A stretch of 63,257 bases of DNA, the filler included, from Kipferlia bialata (Eukaryota): assembly GCA_003568945.1 (NCBI GenBank). It is 4 parts of 4 records of this genome, joined end to end, with 100 filler letters (N's around TTAATTAATTAA, not from the genome) between each part and the next. Parts side by side here need not be neighbours in the genome. Positions count along the whole stretch, not along the records: positions 47,530 to 63,257 come from BDIP01000674.1; 3 more parts are not named here. One strand, 5' to 3'. The translations under genes were made by a program, and so were the position numbers. The notes beneath the pieces were generated by a model. It did no database searches and had not been told where the DNA came from. It was given only the letters and a program-made list of their open reading frames with translations. Of this stretch, positions 13,701 to 63,257 are shown piece after piece. Each line of letters opens with the position of its first letter. Positions within the stretch are counted from its first letter, which is position 1.

Positions 13701-15402
13701 TACAAGAACACACACTCACCGAGGCTGAATATGCCGCCCCCTCCCTTCATGTTGTCCCTGTCGATGGTGTTGGCCATGACTACATTCAGCTGCAGGGCGC
13801 GGGAGGCACCTGGGGGTAAGAGTGTGGAAATGTACTTATAAAAGAGGGAGGGAGACAGAGAGAGAGAGACCACATGCACCTGCCCATCTATATTCATGTC
13901 TATATACATTCGTCTAAATATATATCAGGGTATGATATGTATAAAAATTAATATATATATATATATATACATATCATACCCTGTGCCAGCTGTGCTGCTG
14001 TCCCTAGCAGAGCTAACCAACTAACACACACACTCTCTCTCTGTCATATATATAGATATACACATATACAAACACATACCCTGTGCGAGCTGTGCCGCTG
14101 TCCCTAGCAGGGGAGGGAGGTTGGAGAAGGCGGTCTGGAACAGGATGTTGTAGATGCCCTGGGGTGAATATATTTACACAAAGTATACTATATACAAATA
14201 ATTATATGTGTGTACGTGTACGATATAAATACATATATATATATACCTTCTCGTAGTATGTGCCGAGGGGCTCTGAGTACTGGATGTCTGCACATATCAC
14301 TATGCCAAACTCAGTGCCCCTGAGCCTATGGAGTGAGCAGGGGGAGAGACACACTGTACTAGAACCGACGTACTACACACACCAACACAAGCATATGCAT
14401 CACACAACACTTCAATATCCTTCATGTACGATCTATCCTTCTATCTACACATACTCAGAGATATAGATGTCTATTTATACATACATAACTATATATATAT
14501 ACATATATCCCGTACTTGAAGTGCTGTGCGTCTGGGGTCTCTGGCTGGGACAGCACTGCACCGGTGCCACTCACATGGCTCTTGCGGTACCGGATCTAGA
14601 GGGTCAGCATACAGACACTACTACACTCACATCACCTGAACACCATATATTGCACATTCCCTAACTGGGGTATACCTGAATCTCCCCGTCTCCGATGAGC
14701 ACGGCTGTGTTGTACAGAGTGTCATCATCAACATACTCTAGCACATTGGTCAGTACCCACATACTGAGGTGAGAGGGAGTGAGGGTGTGACGTGCAAGCG
14801 TGTACACAGTATTACGTACTCGTTGTCGTTTGACGTCTGACACGCCCATGCCAACTGGTTGCCACTGTCTAGGAGGGTGTCCTCACTGGCACTCTGGATA
14901 GATGCACAGGACTGGTGGGGGGTGACCACAGAGGAATAGGACTGGGGTATGAGAGAGGGGGGAGAGAGAGAGAGAGAGAGACTGGTGGGGGGTGACTACG
15001 GACGCATAGGCCTTAGGGGGTTAGAAGGGAAGGCAGTGAAGGAGAGAGAGAGAGACTATAGAGAGGCAAAGGACTCGTGACTACTGAGGTATATGACTGG
15101 GGTCAGAGAGAGAGGGGAGAGGCAAAGAACTGGGGGTCTGAGAATATACAATTATAGATATAGAGACTGAGAAAGAGAGAGACAGAGAGGGAGAGTACCT
15201 TGAGGCTCTGTCTGAGGTATGCAATGTCCATACTGATCTCGGCATAGTGGTCCAGGGCCTTCATCCACCCATTCACACCCTGGGGTGAGACAAAAGAGGT
15301 ACACTAGTATATGTATGTGGGGGCATATACATGCTAAAGTGTATACCTCTGGTAGCACCACGAGGTCTCTGGCCTGCTGGCCTGCCATGGACATGGTGTC
15401 AC
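10752..15402 (-). CDS. Carbon-nitrogen hydrolase (nitrilase superfamily, vanin/biotinidase-like) with long C-terminal extension; 5' end lost at contig linker
   Basis: Spliced exons give the Glu-Lys-Cys catalytic triad: DLVVLPE, LYNTAVLI..IRYRKSH, EFGIVICADIQY. Also NVVMAN..GGGIFS. Ends MVFRDYDY* at 10752. Confidence 0.8.
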
Positions 15403-15898: not shown

Positions 15899-18800
15899 CC
15901 ACGTACTATGGCCAGATCCCCGACACATCCAACTGCTGCTACGATGTTGAGGTGAGTGTATGTATTCTGTTCTAGTATGTTGAAGAGAACATATATATAA
16001 GATTATATAAATACAATGATATATAATAGCATACAACTGCTGGTGCCGTGTTGGGGTGTGTTCTACATACAACCCCCCCCCCCCCCCCCCTCCTCTCTCT
16101 CCCTCTCGTTTCCCCTCCACTTGATGCCTTTCAAGTTTATTGCCTGACACCTACAATCACTTCTTCTCACCCCAGTTCCCAGCCTACTTCTGATATGCCA
16201 AGACGCATATACTATTATTTCTATACACATCCATATATCCTAAATAGTATGCCATATGTTTATAGTAGTCTCACCCCAGTTCCCTGCCTACTCCTGCTAT
16301 GCCAAGGCCCACATATACAGAATATACATTGTATATATAGGATAATTTGATATGGGTATACTATATCCCATATTACATATACCTCTTACTCCAGTTCCCT
16401 GCCTACTCCTGCTATGCCAAGGCCCACATCTGCCACACAGGCATGTACGGGGACAGGTACAAGATGTCACTGGAGGTATGTAGTTGTGTAACGGTAGTAC
16501 CCTGGTACTAACATATAGTATATATATTCCTATATATATACATGGTGTTCTCACCATGTTTGATATGGAGGGCGTAGTATGCTATCAAGTGGTGTTACCC
16601 CTTCATTGTCCTTTACTTCTCACCTTAGTTCACCCAATGGAACCCCTACTACAAAGCCAATGTCAACCAAATATATACAACAGTAATCAGACCATTAGTT
16701 ATGAATATATATATGAATAATGAATACTTGTTCTTCTCATTCTACCTCTCACCTTAGTTCACTCAGTGGAACCCCTACTACACAGCCAATGTCAACCACG
16801 TGACATATACATATATATATACACATATATACTATGTATCTACTGCTACTGTTCCTCTCACCCAGTTTACCCAATGGAACCCCTACTACACAGCCAATGT
16901 CAACCATGTGACTGTCGTGTCCCCCACCTCATCCATCGGCCACATCTACAGATACGCAGACAACACACCCATCACCGACTACAACGCTGATGGAAGGTGG
17001 GTATTTATCGGGTGTACTATGTAATTATTCATACATATGCCACACTATATGTGTATAGGCCAATACAGTTTTGTGTATTGAATCACTCTAACCCCTTAGG
17101 CTCCTTGCTGCAGTTGACAAGGACGCCTACACCCATGGGTTTGTCCTGAACTACAGCATCCCCAGCACCATCCACTTCACAGTCAAGGACTTAGAGGTAC
17201 TATATATATATATATATATTCATATATACATATGTGTGTGTCTGTGTGTGTCTATGCTGGTATTACCTACATATCCATCCACTTCACGGTCAAGGACCTA
17301 GAGGTACTCTCTCTCTGATCTCACTCTCTCTCTACATTCCTAATATCTAGGGGTACCATCGTGGCCATCTGCTTCCCTCTCTCTATATAATAATGTGTAT
17401 ACATATGTGTATATGTCCACCCACCCTCGACCCCCATCATCGTCATTGCCATTTCCGCCTTGTATAGGAAGTGTGTCTTCTTATACAGTTCAACATCTCT
17501 CTCCTGTTTACTTCCAGACCCCCATCATCGTCATTGCCCCTTCTTCCTCCACCAGGGCCAGGAACGTCAGCTGGGTGCACTTCACACCAGGTGGACGATA
17601 TATATACACTATATATATACACTATAAGTACTCTCGTGCAGTATACGTCAGCTGGGTGCACTTCACACCAGGTGCGTTATACACTATATATATACANNNN
17701 NNNNNNNNNNNNNNNNNNNNNNNNNNNNNNNNNNNNNNNNNNNNNNNNNNNNNATATATATACTATTGTGTAGTATATACGTCAGCTGGGTGCACTTCAC
17801 ACCAGGTGGATGATATACAAACACCATATATATACAATATATGTACTCTAGTGCAGTATACGTCAGCTGGGTGCACTTCACACCAGGTGCGTTTATACAC
17901 TATATACCGTACCAGCATATATGGGTGTGTATCTTCTCTTTCTTCTCACTCCAGGCGACAAGTGTGGCTCCTCCACCGGGGGTGGATACCCATCAGGTGA
18001 GGACTGCTGCTACATGTGTCATTATATCCATACCTCTAAAACAGTTGCTCATGCATTCAGAGTATAGGATATATTCGCACATACACTCTGGTCTATCCCC
18101 TAACTATCAGACGATGACTGTGGATGCACCTCCGGCAGCAACTGTGGGTCTAACCCATGCGTCGAGTACCCTGAGGTATATCTCGCTTCTCTCTCTCTAT
18201 ATATATGTGTTTACATATACTGTACTAACTATGAATATCAGTTCATATCTCTCATGTGTCTCACTCCAGGTCTCTGCCAAGGTCCAGTTCAAGTGCTCAT
18301 GCGACACCACCAGCCCATACAACTACCTGGACGTGCCCTTTGACTACACAATCAAGCACACAGGTACTTTTGTATGTGGTAGATACATATTCAGATATAT
18401 GTGTATCCATACATGTGTCTATATGTATTGATAGTAGTATACTCTTAGAGTGGACTGAGTTCCCTGTGACTGCACCATCAAGCACACAGGTACCATTCGT
18501 TGTAGTACACTTCCATTATTATATAGTATATGTGTGTACTCCGAGTGGTCTTACTGTCAGGTGCTGATATCAGTGACTGCATCAACAATTGGATGTGATA
18601 TGTATATATATATACATATATGACTATATGAACTATGCTAACCCTAGGTGCTGATGCCGGAGACTGCATTAACCGCCTGCACATTGGTGACAAGCTCTGT
18701 CTGACATGGGACGGGGTCAACGGGACAGACTACCCATGCTACTTCCCAGGTGCACGAAGTACACAATTGAGACTATATATAGGTTGTCACATAGCGTGTA

Positions 18801-20037
18801 TGCCTATTGGAGTTGTATCTTGTCCCATAGTGTGTATGCTCATGACTAGGCAGTAAGTGCTGGACCCTGGGGCGTGGCTGCAACCACCTCGTGGCAGATG
18901 TCGAGTGTGTGTCCCACTGCTGCTGCTGTGACAGTGTTATTGTAGGTATCCACATGTGCATATATATATACATTAATGTATATATATATATATATGTGTG
19001 TGTCTTTCTCTATGTCTCTGTCTTTCTTGTAGCCGATGTCGAGTGTGTGTCACACTGCTGCTGCTGTGACAGTGTGATTGTAGGTATCCACATGTGCATA
19101 TATATACAAACATATGCATATCTTTCTATATGTCTCTGTCTATCTTGTGGTAGAGGGTCATGGTGTGTCCCACTGCTGCTGCGATAGTGTGATAGTAGGT
19201 ATCAGCCATTCTCTCCCTGAAAGCACCTATCTACCTTTTGGGCACTGACGGTGACATTATCTCTATCGGTCTCTCATACGCTATATAGTATAAGCAACTA
19301 TGAACATTACTATCCTACCAGGCACTGTGACCAATGAGCTGAACGGTGACCAAGTCTCTCTCTCTCTTCTTCTATATATGTGGATTCTACTGATCTTTAG
19401 GCACTGTGACCAATGCACTCTCTTTCTCTCTCTCTTCTCCTGTTCTATATATACATGGTATATGTACTGATACCCAGGCACTGTGACCAATGAGTTGAAC
19501 AATGACGAGGTGGTCGAGGGAGTCATCATATCTCTGGATGGGGAGAAGGTGGGGTATTACTATTACAAACATAGAGATGTTGAATATTATGTGTGTTTCT
19601 ATATGAGAGGGTATGATCCTATCTCTGGACAAGGAGAAGGTGGGGTATTACATATACTACTATATACATTAGTATATACATATGATAGTGTCTTTCGGCG
19701 GTCATGTAGATGGAGTGATCTTTCAGTGATATACATATGGTTTCGTACCTGTCTAATATCCAGGTGGCTGAGACAGACGAGTACGGGCACTACACCATCC
19801 ACAACGCCCCCTCAGGTAAGACAACTTCCCATCTCTACTACTCGAGAGACCATATCACACATGCAGTGTGTGAGATACATACATCTACTCTGTTCAGACT
19901 TACCGCCAGGCTCTGTCGAGTATGATTTCACCAAGCCCACCAACCCAGCCTGTGCCCCTCTGACAGTCACGGTTGATGTTGATAAGTGTGATGTGGTGAT
20001 GGAGGATGTCTCGATGCAGTGCAGGGACCAGAGCTAA
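15899..20037 (+). CDS. Cysteine-rich, probably extracellular protein with C-terminal carboxypeptidase-regulatory-like (CarboxypepD_reg-type) beta domain; 5' truncated
   Basis: Exons include SNCCYDVE, DDCGCTSGSNCGSNPCVEYPE, VECVSHCCCCDSVIV, then GTVTNELNNDEVVEGVIISLDGEKVAETDEYGHYTIHNAPSGSVEYDFTKP. Stop TAA at 20035-20037. Confidence 0.65.
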
Positions 20038-20486
20038 ATTACATATATATAGATACTTAGCGAGATGGACCGGTCTATAGTATGTTTGGCGACATAATAG
20101 ATCAAGTGCGATGTGGTGGTGGAGGATGTGTCAATGCAGTGCAGGGACCAGAACTAATAGTCTAGTCTACCAGTAGCATAACTAGCCTATGACTATGTTC
20201 CACAAGACAATAGAGCAAGTGTGATGTGGTGGAGGATGTCTCAATGCAGTGCAGGGACCAGAACTAAACCCTATGGAGAGTATCCATACCAGCAATAGCT
20301 ATACTATTCTGTTCTTCGACCGAATAGATCAAGGTTGGTGTGGTGTGATGGAGAGTGTGTCGATGCAGTGCTGGGAAGCGCGGGCGAACTAGGCTGCCAA
20401 GTAATACTAGTCTCTACTGCCTAGGCATGTAGCACAGTCAGTCACTCTCTGTTCAAATACACAATAGAACTAGCAGGGACCAGAAG
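19981..20486 (+). repeat. Progressively decaying tandem echoes of the terminal coding segment (KCDVVMEDVSMQCRDQ*) in the 3' flank
   Basis: ATGCAGTGCAGGGACCAG recurs near 20014, 20134 and 20243, with degenerate copies near 20363 and 20473. Confidence 0.85.
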
Positions 20487-20872: not shown

Positions 20873-21955
20873 ATGGCCGCTGCCAAGGGCAAGGGTGCAG
20901 CCAAGAGGAAGCCGGCCAAGAAGAAGGTGGCAGACTCAGTAGGTTAGAGGCTATATATACACTAATATATTTACACTAACGTACCCGGAAAGAGTATTGT
21001 TGTTGTAGTGGCGCTTGGTATATTGGAGGGTGGGTGGGAGTGTGTGCCTCGGGTACACTGCAGGTAAGATGGTGATAGGTTGACTCACTGTACATTGGTC
21101 CTCTCTCTCTCTCTCTCTCTCTTTCTCACTCTCTCTTCACATGTGCGTTAGTTTTCCACACACTATAGTACCGCATATGTTCTTGTATACATATAGGTAC
21201 CTCCCCCCCCCCCCCCCCCCCCCCCCCCCTTCCCCCCCCCCCCCCCTCCCCCCCCCCCCCCCCCCCCCCCGTGTTGATCCCCCGCTGACCCAGGTCCCAG
21301 CTGTCTGACGTTGTGACCGGAGCTGCTGCCGTGCCAACACCTGGCAGGAGGGTCAAGAAGAGTGGCGAGGCCCCCAGCGACACCCTCACCGCGGGCACCT
21401 TTGTGTCTGGACGGGAGGACGAGACCAAGGCTGCCACCGTGGCCTCTATCAACAGGGTGAGGCACGCCCCCCACTTCATGGACACCACTGCGTCCAGGGG
21501 GGTGGAGAACAAGCTCGAGAACCTAGGCCACCAGAGGGCCACAGTCATCCCCCCCCTGGACTCCAGGAGGGTCATCGGTATGTGGTGGCGTTCATACATA
21601 TACATACCTTATACATTCATTGTATACGTTGAATACACACCCATAGAAACTGCGGTAGTGTCTCTTCAGTGCCAGAGTGTATAACCGTCCCAACCCTCAC
21701 TCCAGGTGCTGGTTCGGACAAGATTCCCGTCACCTCCGGCATCTTTGCATCCCAGGCCGATGCCCCAGCCCACATCACCACGGCCCTGACCCCAAGGTGC
21801 GTATGTGTTTATTTATACTGTGTGTATCTGACTCCCACTCAGTTTGAGACCTATCACCTACGCAAGTATCACCCTCTTACCCAAGAACCAGGGCCCCTGT
21901 TGCTAAGCCGGTCAGGTCTCGCAACCCAGTCACCTGGGAGGGTTTCTCTGAGTAG
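20873..21955 (+). CDS. Small basic, low-complexity hypothetical protein (MAAAKGKGAAKRKPAKKK ... RSRNPVTWEGFSE*)
   Basis: Exons rich in G/C-ending codons at ~20873, 21294-21577, 21706-21796 and 21886-21955. The junction across the poly-C run at 21203-21270 is not resolved. Confidence 0.55.
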
Positions 21956-22458: not shown

Positions 22459-23846
22459 ATGGCCCCCACCAAGTTCAACTTCAGGTGTGTATTGTTTTTA
22501 ACGAGTTTTATGGTAGTTCTCTAATCGCTTTGTGCACTATTCTCAATCGTTCATTGTTTTTGTATTCTTATACAGCGCTGGACCCGCTCTCCTTCCCAAG
22601 GAGGTCCTTCTTGAGGCCCAGAAGGGTCTTGTGGACTATGAGGGAACTGGAATGAGCGTTATGGAGGTGAGTGGATAATTATTATTGACACCTTCTATTC
22701 GTGTCCGTCCGTCTTGTCATCATGTGTCCTATTGTATATTGTTCGTGAATCATCATAACCGTAATCTCACTCAGATGTCCCACCGTTCTGCCAACTACGA
22801 CAAGGTTCACAGGCACTGCATCGACATGATCCGCAAGGTTCTCGATATCCCCACCAACTACCACGTCCTCCTTCTGGCTGGTGGTGCCACCTACCAGTTC
22901 TCTGCCATCCCCTTCAACCTGCTGGGAGACGGCAACGCCGTGTACGTGAACACCGGTACCTGGTCCAAGAAGGCCTCCACTGAGGCCAAGCGTCTCTTCG
23001 GAGAGAGGATCAAGGTTGTGTCCACCCCCACCTTCACCCTCCCCAAGGTCGAGGACATCGAGATCCCCGAGAACTGCAAGTACGTGTACGTGTGCGACAA
23101 CGAGACTGTGCACGGAGTCGAGTGGCCCTCTGCCCCTGTCTTCGGCGACGTCCCCCTTGTGGCTGACATGTCCTCCAACCTGTTCTCCCGCAGGCTGGAC
23201 ATCTCCAAGTACGGCATGATCTACGGCTGTGCCCAGAAGAACTTCGGCCCTGCCGGTCTCACCGTTGCCATCATCCGTGAGGACCTTGTTGGCGCCGCCC
23301 ACCCCATGTGCCCCGTGCTCATGACCTACAAGACACACGTCGCCAAGACCTGGCCCGCTGAGCGCAACCAGGACTCTCTCTACAACACCCCCCCCACCCT
23401 CTGCATCTGGATCACCATGCTCGTCATGGAGTGGATCGACCGCTGCGGCGGCATCGACGGAATCGAGAAGATGAACAGGGACAAGGTGAGGTGGCCTGTG
23501 GCGTATTGACTTCACTTATACATGTGGTTCAACTATTCTTTCTCTCTTGCTTTACCCACGTCTCACCCAGGCTGCCATGCTCTACAACTACATCGACTCC
23601 TCCCCCTTCTGGACCACCTTTGTCGAGGGCGAGATCCGCTCCCAGATGAACGTTGTGTTCAAGTGCACCAAGGACGACGTCGACAGGGCCGAGATCCTCG
23701 ACTTCTTCCAGGAGCGCGGCATGTCCTCCCTCAAGGGCCACAAGTCCCTGGTCGGCTCCCTCCGTGCCTCCATCTACAACGCCATGCCCAAGGAGGGCGT
23801 GGAGTGCCTGATCCAGGCCATGAAGGACTTCGAGGCTGCCCACTAA
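22459..23846 (+). CDS. serC: Phosphoserine aminotransferase (4 exons: 22459-22484, 22576-22666, 22775-23485, 23571-23846)
   Basis: [52 protein letters not shown] (PLP lysine), [31 protein letters not shown]. All introns are GT-AG and in phase. Confidence 0.97.
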
Positions 23847-52988: not shown

Positions 52989-54494
52989 GCGTCTTCGTCA
53001 AGGGTGTTTGACACCTCTCTGGACCAGATGCTGCTGACCAAGTTCTTCCTGACACCTGATGTGTCAAGGTAATATTCAAGTATCGTATGCATATATATAT
53101 TATTTACTTTGTATATACTGAACAATATTAGCTGAAATATTAGTGTTCCAGTGCACTCTTTCGTGCTATTACTACGATGATATATACTCTCCTCACCAAG
53201 CCACCTCTCGTGTACTACCTTTACATATCCTCCTCACCCTCAGGACTGTGTTGGTCCCATGCATAGTGGCAGCCCTCCAGGTATGACACGCACATCTCTC
53301 TCTCTATATATATTTACGTATACATTTATACTCTATACCTATCATATGCATCGTGGCATATGAAATGATAATATGCCTTCTGAAGAGAAATGAACATATA
53401 TGTTTTTAAGGTACCCTGTCTCTTACACCCAGGGCGGAACCATAGCTCATTTACATATTAGTATTGAATACATATATAGTGTATATATGCACACTGTTTA
53501 TGTCTCACACCCAGGGCATCACCAGTCAGGACGGATACACACAGCCCCCAGACATGCTAGTGGTCAAGGTACATATGTGTATGTATATAACACGTATACT
53601 ATATATATAGTATGTATAGACAATATATGTATGTTCATTACGTATATACAGTATTTGTACGGCATATATTCACCCAGCCCCCAGACATGCTGGTGGTCAA
53701 GGTAGGATATTTATCTGTAATGCATGTTTCCAATATTTCACTAAAATTCTTTTACACTCGTCAATAGAAAACTGACATCCTAGGAGATCTCTGCCATTCT
53801 CAAGAGATACATCCGGCTCCCGCCCCTCGTTGCATCAGCAGATGAGGGAGAGATAGACGGAGAGATAGCCGGAGAGAGAGAGAGAGAGGGAGAGGGGGAG
53901 AGAGAGGGTCAGGACTATGTCCTGCTGGTTCAGGGTGTCCTGTCACTCCTGACATACAGACAGCCCATGATCACAAACAAGGTACACACACACACATACG
54001 TATATATATACACATGTTGATATATGTAGATATGTAAATATATGTATATAGATATATATGTTTGTGCTAGGTGTCCTGTCACTCCTGAGATACAGACAGC
54101 CCATGATCACAAACAAGGTATATGAGTATGTATGTAGATCTATACGTCTCTCTCGCTACCCAGTTTTGTTTATCTTTCTCTCTCTTCCTCTACCCCCTTA
54201 ACTCCCAGGCCACTGTGTTCTTGACCAGGGACACCCCGGGCTCTCTGTCTGTGTCTGGGCCCTACATCGTGTCTGCCCTGTTCAGACTCCTATCACTAGG
54301 TATTTCTTGAGCTTTTGTCATTATTTATGTGTAATTAACAACGATTGGAATATGTCTCTGGGCCCTACATCGTGTCTGCCCTGTTCAGACTACTCTCACT
54401 AGGTATGTATGTTTTTCTCTTTTGAAGTATTCTACTGTCACTAGCTATATATGTATGTATTTTATTTCTAGTACGCGTGTTTAGGTCACACAGG

Positions 54495-54531
<37 letters not shown>

Positions 54532-56123
54532 TACTATATGTATGTGTATTATATCTGTATTTCTTTAAGATCTGACCCCCAGACATGCCCACCCCTGCCT
54601 CTCTCTATACATACATGTTCTTAGGTTATATATATATAATTATATATTATTACTATATCTGTTGGATTGTATCCTATTATAGTTGGATTGTATCCTATTA
54701 TGTAACTAACCCACCCAGACATGCCCGCCCCTGCCTCCCTGCCCCTGTCAGAGAGTGACACGCAGGTAACCTATATATATCATGTATATCACCCAATCAC
54801 ACTTTCTCTCTTGCTTTCATGTATATATTTGTAAACATGATTACATTACGTTTGTATTTAAGGATATATTCAGCTATCTATACATTGACACTTACACTGT
54901 GAGGCAGTGTCATACATGGTATTAATACCCCTCTCTATCACCCTGTAATCGGATTTGTCTCGATCTTTTGGCTCCTCTTTTCTATTGTTCTCCTTACCTC
55001 AGTCCGTGTCTCGCATTCTGCAGCTGGTGGAGGCTGTCCTGTTTGACATGAAGGTGTCGGTGTCACAGTTGTCAGGTAACGGTTGAGATACTCTTGTATT
55101 GAATACATCTATATATATATATATTGATATAGTACTCTATAATATATGGGGGCTGTGCTGTTTGACATGAAGGTGTCGGTATCCCAGTTTTCAGGTATAC
55201 ATATATGTATATATACATGTAAGTATTGTATTATTATGTAATAATATATAGGATACTGTGATGTTTGATATGAGGGTGTCGGTACCCCAGTTGTCAGGTA
55301 ACGTTCTGAGTTCCAATCCATAATGACATTGTATAACTACACTACTATTCTCCAGGTAGTGCTAAAGTATGCTAAAGTGTGAGATTGTCGGAGCATACAT
55401 CGGAGCATATATCGGAGTATATATCGGAGTATATATTTGGAAAATGCGTATAATCCACTCTCTCTTATTCTCCAGGTGGTGCTGAGACCCCCATTGAGGG
55501 TGAGAGTGGGGAGAGTGTGGATGGGTCTCAGTCCATCAGTGTCGGCCTGGCATTCTTCGACATTGTACTCTACTTAATCCTAAGGTAGGCATTAGATAGA
55601 TATTTATACTATATACATACTGCATTAGTTATAGTACATACCTTTGGTATAGTGGCTGTACTTAATACTTAGGTAAGCGGAGTAAGAAAGGTATTCCAAT
55701 GAGAAAATAGATACCGATCTCACCCTCCAGGGAGTACCAGTCCCATGGCCTAGCCGAGTCCCCACCCGCCATGAGGAGGCTCATGAAGGTATGTATATAC
55801 ATGTACATTTACAATAAGTATGCTAAATTTATCGTTTCTCACTCTTTCTCTCTCTCTCTAGACCCTTATTCCAGGTCTTCTCCAAGGCCCCCATCCTCGC
55901 CTTCTCCTCTGCCACCAGACTCATGGCATTCGGGGCACCAAGAGACCCCTTTTCAGGTGAGGATATACATATTCACACATATATGTATTTATCATAGGTA
56001 TACTGTACAGTTACTATACTAGATATATATATAGGTATATATTATATATATATGATATATATATATGTATATTGGTGGACTCATGGTATTTGGGGTATCC
56101 AGGGACCCCTTTTCAGGTACTAT

Positions 56124-56169
<46 letters not shown>

Positions 56170-56613
56170 GTCTTGGTGGACGTTCAAAGTTACATATTCG
56201 CACTAGGGTATCACCTTTCTGACCCTAGGCGACGCTGCCCTTGTGGGAGATGTCTATGCCAGCCAGGGACTCAGGAGGGCAGGGTCCACGGAGGTACAGT
56301 TTATGATATATATATATTGAAGTATATACTATATTGATATGATGTGAGTCATATATTTATGTATCTATATAAGCCAGCCAGGGACTCAGGAGGGCAGGGT
56401 CCACGGAGGTATGCAGTGTAGTTATACATATGTCACACACACACACATACACATTCCTTGCCTCAGGATGTGACATCTTGTAGTCTCTCTCTTATATTAG
56501 TTCTATATATAAGTATATATTATTTCAATTATTTAAGTAGTTGTACTTGAATCTCTTTATCCTCAGGATGTGCCCTCTATTGTCATTGTTCGCTCTCTTT
56601 CGCTCTCTTTCGC

Positions 56614-56663
<50 letters not shown>

Positions 56664-58369
56664 TTACCCCAGGATGTGGCATCCATAGTATCCTCCATGC
56701 TCCCGGTACATGTCCTACAGGTATCCACCGTAATACACATATGTATATATTATCTATATTCATATTTATATTAATGTATATATGTTGTGTCACCCGTGCA
56801 AGTCCTACAGGTATCTAATTGTTTATATATTATTGTTATAGTACTTATGCTGTACTGTTATATGTATATTGAGTCATGTGTAATTTGTTTTGGATATGGA
56901 TACCTTATTGAATGTGTAAATACACATTATATATGTACTTTCTCCTGGCAGAGCTAGAGGAGACCCCCTATTATTCCTTCATACATACCATGTCATTATG
57001 TATAATTATATATTGGTTACTTATATTATTATATATACTATATACCACTATGTACTCTGACCCTGCAGGCAGAGCTAGTGGAGATGGAGGAGGAGAGAGA
57101 GAGGGAGATAGAGGAGGACCAGTACAACAAGGAGAGAGAGAGAGACAGAGCATGTGAGGAGGGTGTAGGAGAGGACATGTCAGTGAGTGAGGGAGAGAGC
57201 GAGGAAGGTGAGCACTCAGTGAGCGAAGAGGAGGACGAGGCTGAGCTAGACCCCTTTGGCGAGTGTCTGTTTGATGTCCCAATGACAGTGTCAGAGGCAT
57301 ATGTCGAGTATGCTCTCATGGTGCTGCTCAGCGTTAGGTGTGTAGTTATACACTTAGTTCAATACATATGAACTATATGCATGCATTCGCTCTCAAATGT
57401 GTATCTATTTTTGGTACTACTTAGCGTTGGTGTGTACTCTGTCTCTCTCTCCACACCCTAATTGTCAGGGACAGCCTAGGCCCCTCCACCCTCTCTCTCT
57501 CTCTCTCTCCCCCCCTCTCTCTCTACACCCTTTTATCCCAGGGACAGTCCTGGCCCCTCCACCCTCTCTCTGGCCAGTGAGGTTCTGACTGTGGTGACTG
57601 GACACGGCATACTGAAGGAGATGTTCATGGAAGGGCTAGTTGAGGTACTAATATATACATATACATATATATATATAGACAATTACACATATATTCATAT
57701 ATGTGACTGTATATATACTTAATGTGGTCAGAGGGCATGAGATACTCAAGGAGATGTTCATGGAGGGACTGGTCGAGGTATTATTATAAATGTAAAGTAT
57801 CTCTTTCTCTTCATACCCCCTTTATTCACATCTAGAATCGTAGCAAGGAGTCCCTCTTTGGTGACATCACCTCTCTCTCTCTTTCTCTCTCTCTCTCCTC
57901 CTGACCCCCTTTATTCACTTCTAGAACCGTAGCAAGGAGTCCCTGTTTGGTGACATAATCATCATTCTCTCTCTCTCTCTCCCCCCATATACCCTTAACT
58001 CACCTCTAGAACAGGAGCAAGGAGTCCCTCTTTGGCGACATCATCAGGAACAGGCACCCCGAGACAGGGGCAGACTCAGTGATACAGGTATATATATACT
58101 TGTATGTACACAGATTTATATATATATATATATGTGTGTGTGTATATATATATATATATATGGTGACCGTGAGTCAGGAACAGACACCCCGAGACAGGGG
58201 CAGACTCGGTCATACAGGTTAGAAACCACACATATGTAAATATATGTATATATATAGAGAGAGAGATAATTTTTCAATATATATGGATACCGTGAGACAG
58301 GAACAGACACCCCGAGACAGAGGCAGACTCAGTGATACAGGTAGGGGTATATATATGTATATATGTATA

Positions 58370-58400
<31 letters not shown>

Positions 58401-58517
58401 GGAGTTTTTCTTTCCATATATGTGGATACCCCGAGACAGGGGCAGACTCGGTGATACAGGTATGTATAGAGACGTACATAGATATAGTGTAAATGATTCA
58501 AAATTGTCGATGGCAGC

Positions 58518-58555
<38 letters not shown>

Positions 58556-60224
58556 ACCCTTATTCCAGGTCATCCTCTCCCACATGACCTCTGTCATATC
58601 CTCCTCCAGTGACCCTGTCTGTCTGGACACAGTGTGCAGCCTAGTCCTCAGACTCATCACCTTAGTCTCTGGGTCTAGCAACCCTAGTGTAGAGAGACCT
58701 CTGGGAGAGAGAGAGAGAAGCCGCAGGGGCTCCAGGTCGTCTAGGGGGTCTAGGAGTGCTATTCCTACCCCCACTAGTGGCAGTGGTACTCTTTCCACCA
58801 TCATGGGAGAGAGAGAGGTTGCCACCCCACTTACATCCCTTGTGTCACCTGCGTGTCTAGGGGCACTCACTGATGCACTCATAGGGACAGAGAACCCCAA
58901 GTGCTACAGGTATGTATAACTATAGTGTATATATGTTGTGTCTATAGTATAGTGTATATGTATGATACCGGGCACTGGTAGGGAATTACTTCTACAGATA
59001 CCGACTAGATGGAGTATAGCCCCTTTGTGGACGGTTCCTGTTGACCTCCCGTTACTGCCCTATATGTGATTCTTAACACAATAATTGATTCTATAATTGA
59101 TCCCAGGTTCCTGTTTGACCTCCCCTTGTCTCTGTCTGCCCTCCATCCATCATTTGTGCAGACATTCACAGACATGGGACTGGACATACTGGACAAGGTA
59201 ACACTGCTCTCGCTATGATGTTGTATCAGTATCCCTTATTGCAGTTATATCATCAATACTCTCTCTCTCTCTCTCTACACCCTTATTCCAGGCCGTCGAT
59301 GCCAGTCTGGCCCATGCCCCCTACATCGAGTCTCTCTCTCTCTCCTCCTCTGAGTACTCGACAGAGACACCCCCATGGACTAATCTAATGGAATGGGCTC
59401 AGACGCTTAGTAGGTGTGAATGTGTTTATACATCAGTGTCCTACCATATCTCTCTACCTGTCTCCCCTCACTCTAGCTATCCCCTTCGTGTCCAGTCCCA
59501 CACATCTTCCATCCAGCTCACTCTCCCTCTCATTCTCTCTCTCTCTCATTATCTCTCTCTCCCTTAACCCTTTAGTTACCTGCTTCGTGTCCAGTCCCAC
59601 ACTTCCTATATCCAGCACCACATACTCTCTCTCTCTCTCTTTCTCTCTCTATGTGTATGTATTGATATTTATATTTACTCTCACTCTAGTTACCTGCTTC
59701 GTGTCCAGTCCCACACCTCTTCCATCCAGCAGGGTGACAGGGACAGACACCCGGAGAGAGAGATGGTATCTAAGGTATGTATAGTGAATATATGTGGTGT
59801 ATTCAAATGTATATTGGGTCAACATATTGTATATACACACTTATGTATATATTCTTGTATCCTCTCACCCCTTAGGTTGAGGAGGCCCTGCTCAACTGCC
59901 TGGGTCTACATATATAATATATATTTATATATATATACTCATATATGTATTGATTATATACATACTCTAATAGGTACTTACCCGGTAGGTTGAGGAGGTC
60001 CTATAAATATATATGTATACTTTAATAGATACTGATACTGACACCAGGTTGAAGAGGCCCTGCTGCACTGTCTGGGTGACTCAGGGAGAGTAGAGGACAC
60101 AGAGAGAGAGGTATGTGTGTACTACTACAGCAATATGGTATCCAATTATTTATATTATCCTGACCCCAAGGCCGAGAGACTTGCCTTGAGGGAGAGGTAC
60201 AGCTGCACGGATCAGCAGGTGGGG

Positions 60225-60258
<34 letters not shown>

Positions 60259-62228
60259 TAACTGAGAAATTCTATGTTACCTCACATATATATGCGCATA
60301 CTATATATGTGAGAGGTACAGCTGCACGGATCAGCAGGTATACTACTATTTGCATTCATTCGTCTTTATTACCATCATATTACATACTACTATATAAGAT
60401 GTGTGTACTCACCCTAGGCCGCCTTCTACCTCATTGTCTCCATGGCCTTGTCCAGCACAGCATCACGGTCATCTAGAGCGTCTAAGACGTCTAAGGCGTC
60501 TAGACCGTTCGTTGATCTGGGCAGGTGTTCCTTGGCTCTGTTGAGACCTGTTGAGGCAGCGACCAATGCACTCAAGTACCTAACAGCAATGTCGGGAGGT
60601 ATATATGTATAACTACATAGTTACAATGTATATTACTTATATAATCCATTATTCCTATAACCAATGCACTGAAGTACCTGACAGCCATGTCGGGAGGTAT
60701 GGTATATATTACTATATCTATTACATTACATTATTAACATGGGTATTACTTAAATATTACATCATTAATATATTCATTGACTTCAGTATTGTATTCATTG
60801 TACATATAGATACACTAACATCAGCCTCTGCCCCAGGTGCTGTCAGTCCCACCTCAATCATACTGGCACCAATACTGAGGTGTGTATATGGATGGTTGTG
60901 AGTGTGTCTTATGAATATACTACACGAATCTGACGAGCCAATCGTATATATTCCCCCATACACATATTCATTCACAGGACCTAGTCATCTCTCTCTCTCT
61001 CTCTGCATATATTTATGTATTTGTATATGGACATACACCTTCTCACTTCTTAGGGCCCTGTATCTCCCTGCCGGTCACCCCATGCGTACATATGTGTGCA
61101 CACACCTTCCCAGGGCATTCGAGGAGGGGCAGGTGGGTTTTGATTGATATTCATATGCTAAACAGAGATATATACGTATGTACATACGTACCACATGATA
61201 TATATATATATATGTATGCACACACCTACCCAGGGCATTCGAGGAGGGGAAGGTGGGTATTGATTAGTGTATGCATCTATTGATGTGTATATTCCATTTA
61301 CTCCCAGGGTCTAGTCTCTCTGTGCCTGACAGAGATGCACTGCATACCCATGCCCAGTTCCCAGAGGTATATATTAATGTATATTTATATATATATATAT
61401 AGAGAGAGAGGAAGGGAGAGATGCACTCCATACCCATGCCCAGTGCCCAGAGGTATATATGTATATAGACATATATACATATATATATCTATATACTGAG
61501 AGAGGGAGATGAATTCATTCATACATTTTGAGTGTGTGCATTTGTCTTCAGAAGGTTATACGTACCATATTTATTACTCAACCTTAGGGAAGGTGGACTG
61601 CGGGAGAGGGAGAGAGAGAGAAAGAGGGAGAGGAAGCCCAGCATGGGTGGCCGCAGAGACAGGAGGGAGAGAGAGAGAGATGCCCGTATCAGTGTGTTTG
61701 AGGCACTGGTGATAGCCTTAGTACCTCTACTTCACAAGGACAAGGAGAGGGAGAGGGAGAGGGAGAGAGAGAGAGAGGCTGAGGAGGGGGAGGCCCAGGA
61801 GATGAGGGACACATCAGTCGAGGATGCCGATCTCCTAGCCTCTATCCACTGTGTGTCTGCACTGATTGAGAGTGTGACTCTGTCACCCCCTCCCACATTC
61901 TCTCTGGCACAGGCTGGGCCAGAGAGGGAGAGCGGGTCTTTCGAGCAGCAGGTATATATTATCCCTACGTGAATGCATAAGAATATGGTGTTGCTAAATG
62001 TGTGCTAAATGTGTGCTAAATGTGTGTGTGTATGTATATTAGTGTACCCCTGTCGAGAGACAGGGAGTGGATGTCGTTTGAACACTTAGTACCGTGATAA
62101 TTTCACTCATTTACTCTCTCTCTCTCTCTATCTCTCTCTCACCCTAGGCCATGCTGTGCTCTGCTGTCCTTACTTCTATCTTCTCTCTCTCTCTCTCTCA
62201 TCCTATTATGTTGTCTCATCCTATTACA

Positions 62229-62276
<48 letters not shown>

Positions 62277-62454
62277 CTCACTCTAGACCAAGCTGTGCTC
62301 TGCTGTCATTGCTTCTCTCTCTCTCTCTCTCTCTAGCCCTCTCTCTCTAGCCCCCTCTCTCATTCCAGGCCATGTTGTGCTCTGCTGTCCTTGCTTCTAC
62401 CTCTCTCTCTCTCTCTCTCTCATCCTAATATGTAGACTCATCCTATTATATATG

Positions 62455-62494
<40 letters not shown>

Positions 62495-63202
62495 CTCACC
62501 CTAGGCCATGCTGTGCTCTGCTGTCCTTGCTGCTGAGAAGTTGGTACCTGCACTGTGCCTCTATCTGTACAGGTATCCTCTCTCTCTCTAGCCACACCAG
62601 TCAGTTCATGTCTCCCTCTCCCTCTCCCTCTCTCTCTATTCATATGTATACTGTGTCTCTCCCCGGCCACATCTCCCAGTTTATGTATCCCTTTCTCTCT
62701 CTCTCTAGATGAAGTCATATTCCCATCTAATACCAGCCACACCTCCCAGTTCATGTCTGGCCACCCCATATCAGTCAGTCAGACGGTCGGGGTATTATCC
62801 CTGATTCTACAGGTATACTTGTAGTCATACATGTGTTATGGATGTATTCATTTATGGATGCTACATATATCAGACGGTCGGGGTACTATCCCTGTATCTG
62901 CAGGTACATATATATATATATATATACTTGTATATATACATGTATTTAAATATGTATCAATTGTATCAGTCAGTCAGACGGTCGGGGTGCTGTCCCTCAT
63001 CCTCCAGGTATATGTATTCTTTTATATGTGAATATATTGAGACCTCACTGCCTAAGCTTATGTTTCTGTCTATATTCAATCTCATTTATACTTCGAATTT
63101 CTTTGTCTTGAGCTTGTTTGTTGTCTGACGTCAGCTCACCACCATTGTACGGCGTTTCTTCAGGATATCGGCCCCTGCTGCCCTGTCCCTCTTGCACCAG
63201 AG
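52989..63202 (+). CDS. Very large, intron-rich hypothetical protein (helical, possibly HEAT-like, with acidic/ER-rich loops); continues beyond window
   Basis: More than 25 small GT-AG exons with amphipathic-helix translations (VGLAFFDIVLYLILR, EAYVEYALMVLLSVR, VCSLVLRLITLV, SVFEALVIALVPLL). No family recognised. Confidence 0.6.
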
Positions 63203-63204
63203 GT

Positions 63205-63257
<53 letters not shown>

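What the first reader, a model, noticed from the sequence alone, without database searches (positions are those of the whole stretch)
57591..58040. Deeply diverged but protein-conserving echoes, including an Arg CGT/AGG switch
Exon end 57591-57644 (VVTGHGILKEMFMEGLVE|GT) versus echo 57724-57777 (VVRGHEILKEMFMEGLVE|GT): 10 of 18 codons differ and 8 are silent. The next exon start NRSKESLFGDI is preceded by two acceptor-bearing echoes with AAT/AAC, CGT/AGG, CTC/CTG, GGT/GGC and ATC/ATA. This much silent divergence implies long independent evolution as coding sequence, which is hard to explain by recent slippage.
Basis: partly seen in the sequence, partly recalled or inferred. Interest (0 to 1): 0.72.

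Follow-up and report, generated by a model that had tools for sequence, protein, structure and literature searches.

The report
Allele-derived exon-end copies inside introns
In the free-living protist Kipferlia bialata, about a third of the introns examined here hold short spare copies of the neighbouring exon ends that differ from the real exon mostly at silent positions and are skipped in the one transcript seen; they are likely scars copied from long-diverged working versions of the same gene during DNA repair, which would make these introns an archive of other alleles.

Summary
Confirmed, and far wider than reported. The window is Kipferlia bialata. The echoes at 57724-57777, 57836 and 57925 are real DNA at single-copy depth and are 3 of 88 echoes: 45 of 89 introns in six genes, 0 of 39 in seven others. 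Echoes keep GT/AG (80 of 88) and nest strictly, donor copies before acceptor copies (13 of 13 introns). One spliced contig uses the outermost sites. Echo-versus-exon K0/K4 is 0.12-0.18, whereas copy-then-decay gives about 0.5; echo-versus-echo is 0.25. Amino-acid changes look like unselected decay. So echoes diverged as coding DNA but are probably non-coding now. No second allele was found in this strain. Best reading: pieces copied from diverged alleles when intron breaks were repaired from a homolog (inferred). Structurally these resemble amphioxus 'mirages' and the F7 intron-7 repeat, and this scan noted similar duplications in other genomes; the silent bias, unalignable intron flanks and density differ.

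The parts
57542..57644 (+). True exon (ends ...MEGLVE|GT); its last 54 nt, 57591-57644, are echoed
   Evidence: Exact spliced match to P0001; RNA-like contig X2 record 9 matches 57540-57642 with 0 differences
57645..58009 (+). 365-nt intron actually spliced (outermost GT..AG), holding one donor echo and two acceptor echoes
   Evidence: spacing in X2 record 9 fits 57644->58010->58087->58569
57724..57779 (+). Donor echo: copy of the exon end plus GT (57778-57779); 8 silent and 2 replacement codons
   Evidence: inside DNA contig 57688-57865, depth 383, 0 differences
57778..57835 (+). Inner complete GT..AG unit of 58 nt between the donor echo and the first acceptor echo
   Evidence: inner units are 55-180 nt in 13 of 13 such introns, shortest modelled intron 48 nt
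57836..57869 (+). Acceptor echo 1 (AAT CGT ... GGT), preceded by AG; all 3 changed codons silent
57925..57961 (+). Acceptor echo 2 (CGT, CTG, GGT, ATA), preceded by AG; all 4 changed codons silent
   Evidence: not covered by any laid contig piece (region skipped as repeat)
58010..58087 (+). True next exon (NRSKESLFGDIIRNRHPETGADSVIQ)
   Evidence: length fits X2 record 9
58174..58461 (+). Three donor echoes of exon 58010-58087 in the next intron (GT at 58218, 58341, 58460)
   Evidence: two of them seen as separate DNA contigs at depth 394-399
57469..57498 (+). Acceptor echo of exon 57542
52989..63202 (+). Host gene of unknown family; 19 of 28 introns carry echoes
   Evidence: Pfam finds only the L1 domain of the upstream gene fused in P0001
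37110..41821 (-). WD40-repeat gene with echoes in 8 of 16 introns (same system, other scaffold)
   Evidence: Ab initio model, echoes
15899..20386 (+). Gene with echoes in 7 of 12 introns plus three echoes of the stop-codon end
10557..15402 (-). Gene with echoes in 6 of 16 introns plus three echoes of the stop-codon end

Best explanation
The echoes are short copies of exon ends, with their splice sites, lying inside the neighbouring intron and skipped in the one transcript seen, and they were likely copied from long-diverged working alleles of the same gene when breaks in the intron were repaired from the other chromosome. Shown: position, nesting, intact splice sites, silent-biased divergence, outermost-site splicing in one contig. 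Inferred mechanism: a break falls in an AT/microsatellite-rich intron; the homolog's intron is too different to pair, so one end invades in the flanking exon, copies the homolog's whole intron and runs 14-60 nt into the far exon; instead of annealing to the mismatched resident exon end it is end-joined (polymerase theta type) to the other broken end. That leaves resident exon | resident intron stump | foreign exon end | foreign intron. Unequal exchange between an echo and an exon end of another allele then expands arrays and refreshes them. Selection keeps only products whose extra copy falls in non-coding DNA, and the spliceosome takes the sites nearest across the exon (inferred exon definition / first-donor scanning). 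After capture the echo decays neutrally.
For: Silent bias: 4-fold sites differ 19-25%, 0-fold 2.6-5.2%, K0/K4 0.12-0.18, also without the focal intron and with one echo per junction; neutral-copy simulation through the same detection gives 0.50-0.56, an allele-source simulation gives 0.15-0.23. Echo-echo ratio 0.25 and echo-private 0.29 where 1 is expected; where the exon differs from all echoes, 0 of 411 0-fold sites change. Replacement changes are no more conservative than random (BLOSUM62 -0.61 vs -0.68, p=0.38), 3 of 88 echoes carry stops, and they lean G/C->A/T (36 vs 20). Silent and replacement divergence are uncorrelated across echoes (rho 0.02). A 50:50 mix of self-copies and foreign copies is rejected (0 of 400 replicates at each of two settings), a uniformly deep source fits, as expected if divergence itself causes the scar. 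Intron flanks are mostly unalignable (21 of 88 rank in the top 5%). Each echo adds 91 nt, about one intron; donors precede acceptors 13 of 13, inner GT..AG 55-180 nt, 0 wrong-side copies. Echoes also flank stop and start codons. Several arrays share distal breakpoints. Echo genes have AT/TA-richer introns even where echo-free (p<=0.001). K. bialata has PolQ, Spo11 and four Dmc1 entries (PMC8516963 supplement); metamonads lack Ku/NHEJ (main text).
Against: No diverged allele was seen in this strain: no variant contig at >=88% over 52900-63180 or >=80% over 57535-58480, uniform depth (contigs drop bubbles), and P0001 has one member. The model needs source alleles about 20-30% apart at silent sites, very high for one species. 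A simple panmictic coalescent fits only marginally (P about 0.05). At silent differences the exon more often holds A/T and the echo G/C (50 vs 27, p=0.012, nearest echo per junction; 57 vs 39, p=0.08, all unique; 27 vs 27 in multi-echo junctions), which exchangeable alleles do not predict. Innermost donor and acceptor echoes do not share divergence (rho -0.24, n=13). No break, junction microhomology or repair step was demonstrated.
Confidence: 0.5

Rival explanations
1. Mirage-type route: echoes start as ordinary same-chromosome tandem duplications of a splice junction; in a hyper-polymorphic recombining population the exon and echo are then reshuffled or converted with other alleles, so exon-echo distance equals allelic diversity. 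Same source of silent change, different birth.
For: Head-to-tail geometry and no wrong-side copies; shared breakpoints and homologous spacers in some arrays, e.g. 18946/19084 and 39218/39116; described for amphioxus mirages (PMC3087553).
Against: No echo has an identical 40-nt intron flank among the 23 with 0-1 exon-part differences; dispersion disfavours a class of fresh self-copies and only marginally allows exponential coalescence; spacers are never under 33 nt.
Confidence: 0.25
2. Echoes are still used as coding sequence, by non-canonical splicing, template switching or DNA-level collapse in some cells, so purifying selection acts on them directly.
For: K0/K4 0.12-0.18; echo splice sites score as well as true ones (donor p=0.40, acceptor p=0.54).
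Against: Spliced contig uses the exon copy with 0 differences; using an echo site keeps the frame open in only 11 of 86 and offsets are random mod 3; most echoes lack a second splice site (19 of 88 have one nearby); replacements are random and include stops; echoes also occur beyond stop codons.
Confidence: 0.1
3. Frozen snapshots: echoes are old self-copies held nearly constant at the nucleotide level (a splicing or structural role, or much lower mutation), while only the exon's silent sites drift.
For: Exon-A/T versus echo-G/C asymmetry; uniform divergence; scrambled intron flanks suggest age; 30 of 41 echo pairs are compatible with a ladder.
Against: 11 of 41 pairs (7 of 22 junctions) have private silent changes in both echoes, and the 'younger' echo still shows pS 0.061 vs pN 0.030; no known force would hold first and second codon positions of a non-coding copy while its exon drifts 20%.
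Confidence: 0.1
4. Assembly artefact: two haplotypes or a paralog stitched in tandem.
For: Short-read assembly; the genome was suggested to be diploid from k-mers (PMC5874029).
Against: Independently built DNA contigs match the window with 0 differences across many exon-echo pairs (e.g. 54540-55833, 60265-61369); the focal donor echo sits between intronic sequence in one contig at full depth. Caveat: X1 may be the assembly's own source sample, and no single contig bridges exon 57644 to the echo by 31 letters on both sides.
Confidence: 0.02

Closest known systems
Amphioxus 'mirages' (Adh3, globins BflGb6/BflGb9, TnC, PGBD5; PMC3087553 and PMC3902484, passages read)
   Same: Tandem copies of 5' or 3' exon-intron boundaries inside introns; many keep AG/GT; reported not to disturb splicing; unequal crossing-over proposed.
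   Different: Mirage units are 81-100% identical over the whole unit with concerted evolution; here the intron part is mostly unalignable, the exon part differs mainly at silent sites, copy number is 1-5 and half the introns of affected genes carry them. The passages read give no synonymous-bias test and call the mechanism unclear.
Human F7 intron 7 37-bp VNTR (PMC1557585, abstract read)
   Same: Authentic donor followed by functional but silent pseudo-donors; the most upstream donor is used.
   Different: Single locus, identical repeats, donors only. It does not explain use of the last of several equal acceptors.
Polymerase-theta-dependent tandem duplications / templated insertions after aborted homologous repair (search listing only; mechanism otherwise recalled)
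   Same: Aborted strand invasion finished by end joining leaves a duplicated stretch at a break.
   Different: Here the template would be a deeply diverged homolog and the scars are bounded by exon homology; not shown directly.

Membership tests
Amphioxus-type mirages / boundary-spanning minisatellites | Direct, tandem copies that span an exon-intron boundary and lie in the adjacent intron | tested here: met
   88 echoes, all on the adjacent side, 0 wrong-side copies
Amphioxus-type mirages / boundary-spanning minisatellites | Many copies keep GT/AG | tested here: met
   80 of 88 intact
Amphioxus-type mirages / boundary-spanning minisatellites | Normal splicing is undisturbed (first donor, last acceptor) | tested here: met
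   One contig of run X2 (RNA by guess) and the annotated protein fit the outermost sites; minor isoforms cannot be seen in contigs
Amphioxus-type mirages / boundary-spanning minisatellites | Minisatellite-like units highly similar over the whole unit, intron part included | tested here: not met
   Only 21 of 88 intron flanks rank in the top 5% against other introns; 9 of 23 even among near-identical echoes. Met only by the stop-codon array at 10557-10752 and a few arrays.
Amphioxus-type mirages / boundary-spanning minisatellites | Copy-number polymorphism between haplotypes or somatic instability | not testable with these tools
   One strain, contigs only; no relative found in metagenomes
Mutually exclusive or tandem alternative exons | Each copy has its own acceptor and donor and keeps the frame | tested here: not met
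   19 of 88 have a second site near the far end; frame kept in 11 of 86; an acceptor echo never precedes a donor echo
Polymerase-theta templated insertion from a homolog | Enzyme set present (PolQ, recombinase) and NHEJ absent | tested here: met
   From the literature only: PMC8516963 text and Supplementary Data 2
Polymerase-theta templated insertion from a homolog | Microhomology at the junction and an identifiable donor allele | tested here: inconclusive
   Junctions listed but microhomology cannot be separated from echo sequence without the donor; no donor allele available

The most novel reading that the evidence does not exclude
K. bialata grows and renews its introns genome-wide by inter-allele repair that leaves nested exon-end scars, so that tens of thousands of introns archive codon variants of alleles 20-30% diverged at silent sites, and its reduced spliceosome reliably picks the outermost of several equally strong donors and acceptors in introns of only 150-550 nt.
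Probability: 0.35. Interest if true: 0.8.

Novelty: new variant of a known kind. Interest (0 to 1): 0.66.

Why it matters
Boundary duplications are known as curiosities at single loci. Here they occupy 45 of 128 modelled introns on four unlinked scaffolds; if typical of the 124,912 introns reported for this genome (PMC5874029), that is tens of thousands of natural tests of how a spliceosome chooses among equal splice sites, in particular the last of several acceptors, in a short-intron protist with a reduced spliceosome (87 of 174 proteins, no snRNA candidates, PMC6679479). The silent bias would let one genome report on alleles, outcrossing or hybridisation in a group where sex has not been observed (PMC8516963), and offers a concrete route of intron growth and turnover.

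Tried and rejected
No whole genome was held, so the test is limited to this window. Metagenome scans with P0001 and with a 26-nt acceptor motif found no relative; a search with the PSAT exon found no close relative, best 51% Dysnectes brevis. In one search no X2 contig was laid on 57535-58480 and 57866-57995 and 58105-58480 were skipped as repeats: no evidence either way. Joint tables were dominated by low-complexity matches and cut (158 rows not shown), so use of echo splice sites was not measurable. No listed run is on record as RNA; X2 is RNA by guess, though its contig is exon-only. The repeat finder and ORF lists were uninformative. Rejected: neutral decay after self-duplication; cassette or mutually exclusive exons; 50:50 self/foreign mixture; gene conversion alone with low polymorphism (by reasoning its floor is also K0/K4 0.5); antigenic-variation cassettes (changes are silent and occur in a WD40 housekeeping-type gene). 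Rows dropped: one off-register hit at 58321 (89 -> 88); gene 20873-21796, whose model gave no open frame; two short models (46741, 30221) and intron-poor 2760-10000 were not analysed. Per-gene bootstraps crashed after the first gene; one search had NaN rows and was rerun. Literature: ten full-text searches and term finds in PMC5874029 ('duplicat' 0 hits) showed no description of these echoes in Kipferlia and no synonymous-bias analysis of mirages; the library lacks most subscription journals, and the original Adh3 mirage paper was not read.

Full report
1. Observation. The donor echo is as described: 57591-57644 versus 57724-57777, 10 of 18 codons different, 8 silent, 12 nucleotide differences with 10 at third positions, both followed by GT. 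The next exon (58010-58087) is preceded by two acceptor copies at 57836 and 57925 whose changed codons are all silent, including CGT for AGG in both.

2. Organism and gene. Exon 58569-58907 is 100% identical to P0001, labelled Kipferlia bialata. P0001 aligns exactly to 51514-62821 using the first donor and last acceptor at every echo-bearing intron (one solver exon at 59989 corrected to 60048-60110). It is a fusion of a ribosomal L1-domain gene with a downstream gene of no Pfam family. The window is four scaffolds of about 15.7 kb joined by N-run linkers; the last, 47530-63257, equals the 15,728-nt contig length given for P0001.

3. Real DNA, not a second haplotype. Contigs of DNA run X1 match the window with 0 differences across many exon-echo pairs at depth 348-393. 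One contig covers 57688-57865 (intron, donor echo, inner intron, acceptor echo 1) at depth 383 and another the exon to 57643 at depth 304. No variant contig was listed at >=88% or >=80% likeness. Limits: X1 may be the assembly's source sample, contigs drop bubbles, echo 2 was skipped as repeat, and no listed piece bridges exon and echo. A contig of run X2 (RNA by guess) is exon-only, matches 57540-57642 with 0 differences, and has 77 letters between 57642 and 58566, exactly fitting 57644->58010 and 58087->58569.

4. Extent. With 13 gene models (one from P0001's downstream part plus one ab initio last exon, one from its L1 part, 11 ab initio, one hand-corrected) an anchored scan found 89 hits, 88 after dropping one off-register duplicate: 42 donor and 46 acceptor echoes at 58 junctions, in 45 of 89 introns of six genes and 0 of 39 introns of seven genes, on all four scaffolds. 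Control pairings gave 0 hits in 1261. Exon-like parts are 14-60 nt, offsets 49-372 nt; each echo adds 91 nt (r=0.86), spacers are at least 33 nt. Donor echoes precede acceptor echoes in 13 of 13 introns with both (p=4e-7), enclosing a complete GT..AG unit of 55-180 nt; no copy lies on the wrong side. Echoes also follow stop codons (10752, 20037) and precede a start codon (20873), so the rule is coding/non-coding boundary, not splicing as such. Echo-free introns of echo genes are richer in AT, TA and microsatellites than introns of echo-free genes (p<=0.001).

5. The silent bias is general. Exon versus echo: 4-fold sites differ 0.19-0.25, 0-fold 0.026-0.052, K0/K4 0.12-0.18 under three trimmings, 0.16 with one echo per junction, 0.18 without the focal junctions; bootstrap upper limit 0.26. 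A copy that decays neutrally beside a constrained exon cannot go below about 0.5; simulation through the same detection gave 0.50-0.56, lowest 0.34 in 360 replicates. Echo versus echo gives 0.25 (p=1e-8) and echo-private changes 0.29 (p=2e-5) where 1 is expected (pairs are not independent). GT/AG is intact in 80 of 88, against 0.74 expected for neutral copies with the observed 4-fold divergence.

6. But echoes look non-coding now. The 75 replacement changes are as radical as random ones (p=0.38) and 3 echoes carry stops; they lean G/C to A/T; they are strongly clumped among echoes (p=3e-7) and uncorrelated with silent divergence. Using an echo site would keep the frame in 11 of 86 cases; offsets are random mod 3. 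This gives two layers: about 0.2 silent divergence gained as coding DNA and about 0.03 of later decay.

7. Where the coding layer came from. Silent divergence is nearly uniform: observed dispersion 0.99 for 58 junctions; constant or gamma-distributed source divergence fits (P 0.46-0.89), exponential is marginal (P 0.045-0.053), a half-self mixture is rejected (0 of 400 at both settings). Intron flanks are mostly unalignable, even beside near-identical echoes. Both point to a foreign, deeply diverged template rather than the same chromatid. In 7 of 22 multi-echo junctions two echoes each have private silent changes, suggesting more than two source lineages. I infer homolog-templated repair of intron breaks that overshoots into the far exon and is finished by end joining, followed by unequal exchange (shared breakpoints). 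K. bialata is listed with PolQ, Spo11 and four Dmc1 entries, and metamonads lack Ku and Rad51A is lost in fornicates (PMC8516963: passages and supplement rows; one supplement was a picture PDF and not searched). Against: no such allele is seen in this strain; the needed divergence of 0.2-0.3 is extreme for one species (comparison recalled, not from a call); the exon-A/T, echo-G/C asymmetry is unexplained, though G/C-biased one-way conversion could produce it; innermost donor and acceptor echoes are not correlated.

8. Splicing. Echo sites score as well as true ones, yet the outermost are used. First-donor scanning is established for human F7 (PMC1557585 abstract); last-acceptor choice suggests cross-exon definition or inner-first nested splicing (inference, untested).

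9. Known kin and novelty. The structure matches amphioxus mirages (PMC3087553, PMC3902484; passages; the term was recalled after a lead) but fails their whole-unit similarity feature and adds a strong silent bias and high density. This scan noted boundary duplications in other genomes, one with a weak silent bias; these are leads, not support. Papers seen: PMC5874029 (passages and section 7), PMC6679479 (passages), PMC8516963 (passages, supplement hits), PMC1557585 (abstract), PMC3087553 and PMC3902484 (passages); others as listings only. Verdict: real, not an artefact, a new variant of a known kind; mechanism inferred at about even odds.

Noticed in passing
window 51514-62821: The public protein P0001 fuses a ribosomal L1-domain gene (51514-52540) to the unrelated echo-rich gene; probably an annotation fusion.
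   Followed up: partly
window 58536-58569 and 59259-59292: An identical 34-nt CT-rich acceptor module ends two different introns, with near copies at 55850 and 57510; the bin holding 59259 draws very high summed contig depth (253,437), suggesting a genome-wide repeated acceptor motif. No match in metagenome contigs.
   Followed up: partly
window 48811, 48891, 48933: A modelled GC-AG intron in the radical-SAM-like gene; both of its donor echoes also end in GC.
   Followed up: partly
window 10557-10752 (-), 20037-20386 (+), 20713 (+): Echoes of stop-codon ends in 3' flanks and of a start-codon end upstream of the ATG at 20873.
   Followed up: yes
window 15811, 31646, 47474: N runs with a TTAATTAATTAA linker: the window is four separate scaffolds of about 15.7 kb.
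   Followed up: yes
window 37110-41821 (-): WD40 protein resembling the dynein assembly factor DAW1/ODA16 (resemblance recalled, not tested); a conserved gene that still carries 19 echoes.
   Followed up: no
window 22459-23846 (+): Phosphoserine aminotransferase, GC3 0.86, three introns and no echo; best hit Dysnectes brevis 51%.
   Followed up: partly
window 2760-10000: Intron-poor stretch of different character, with a minus-strand P-loop-like reading near 8500-9100; not modelled.
   Followed up: no
echo-covered exon ends, six genes: Exon ends with echoes have lower GC3 (0.67) than other exon ends of the same genes (0.74, p=0.004, not corrected for gene).
   Followed up: partly
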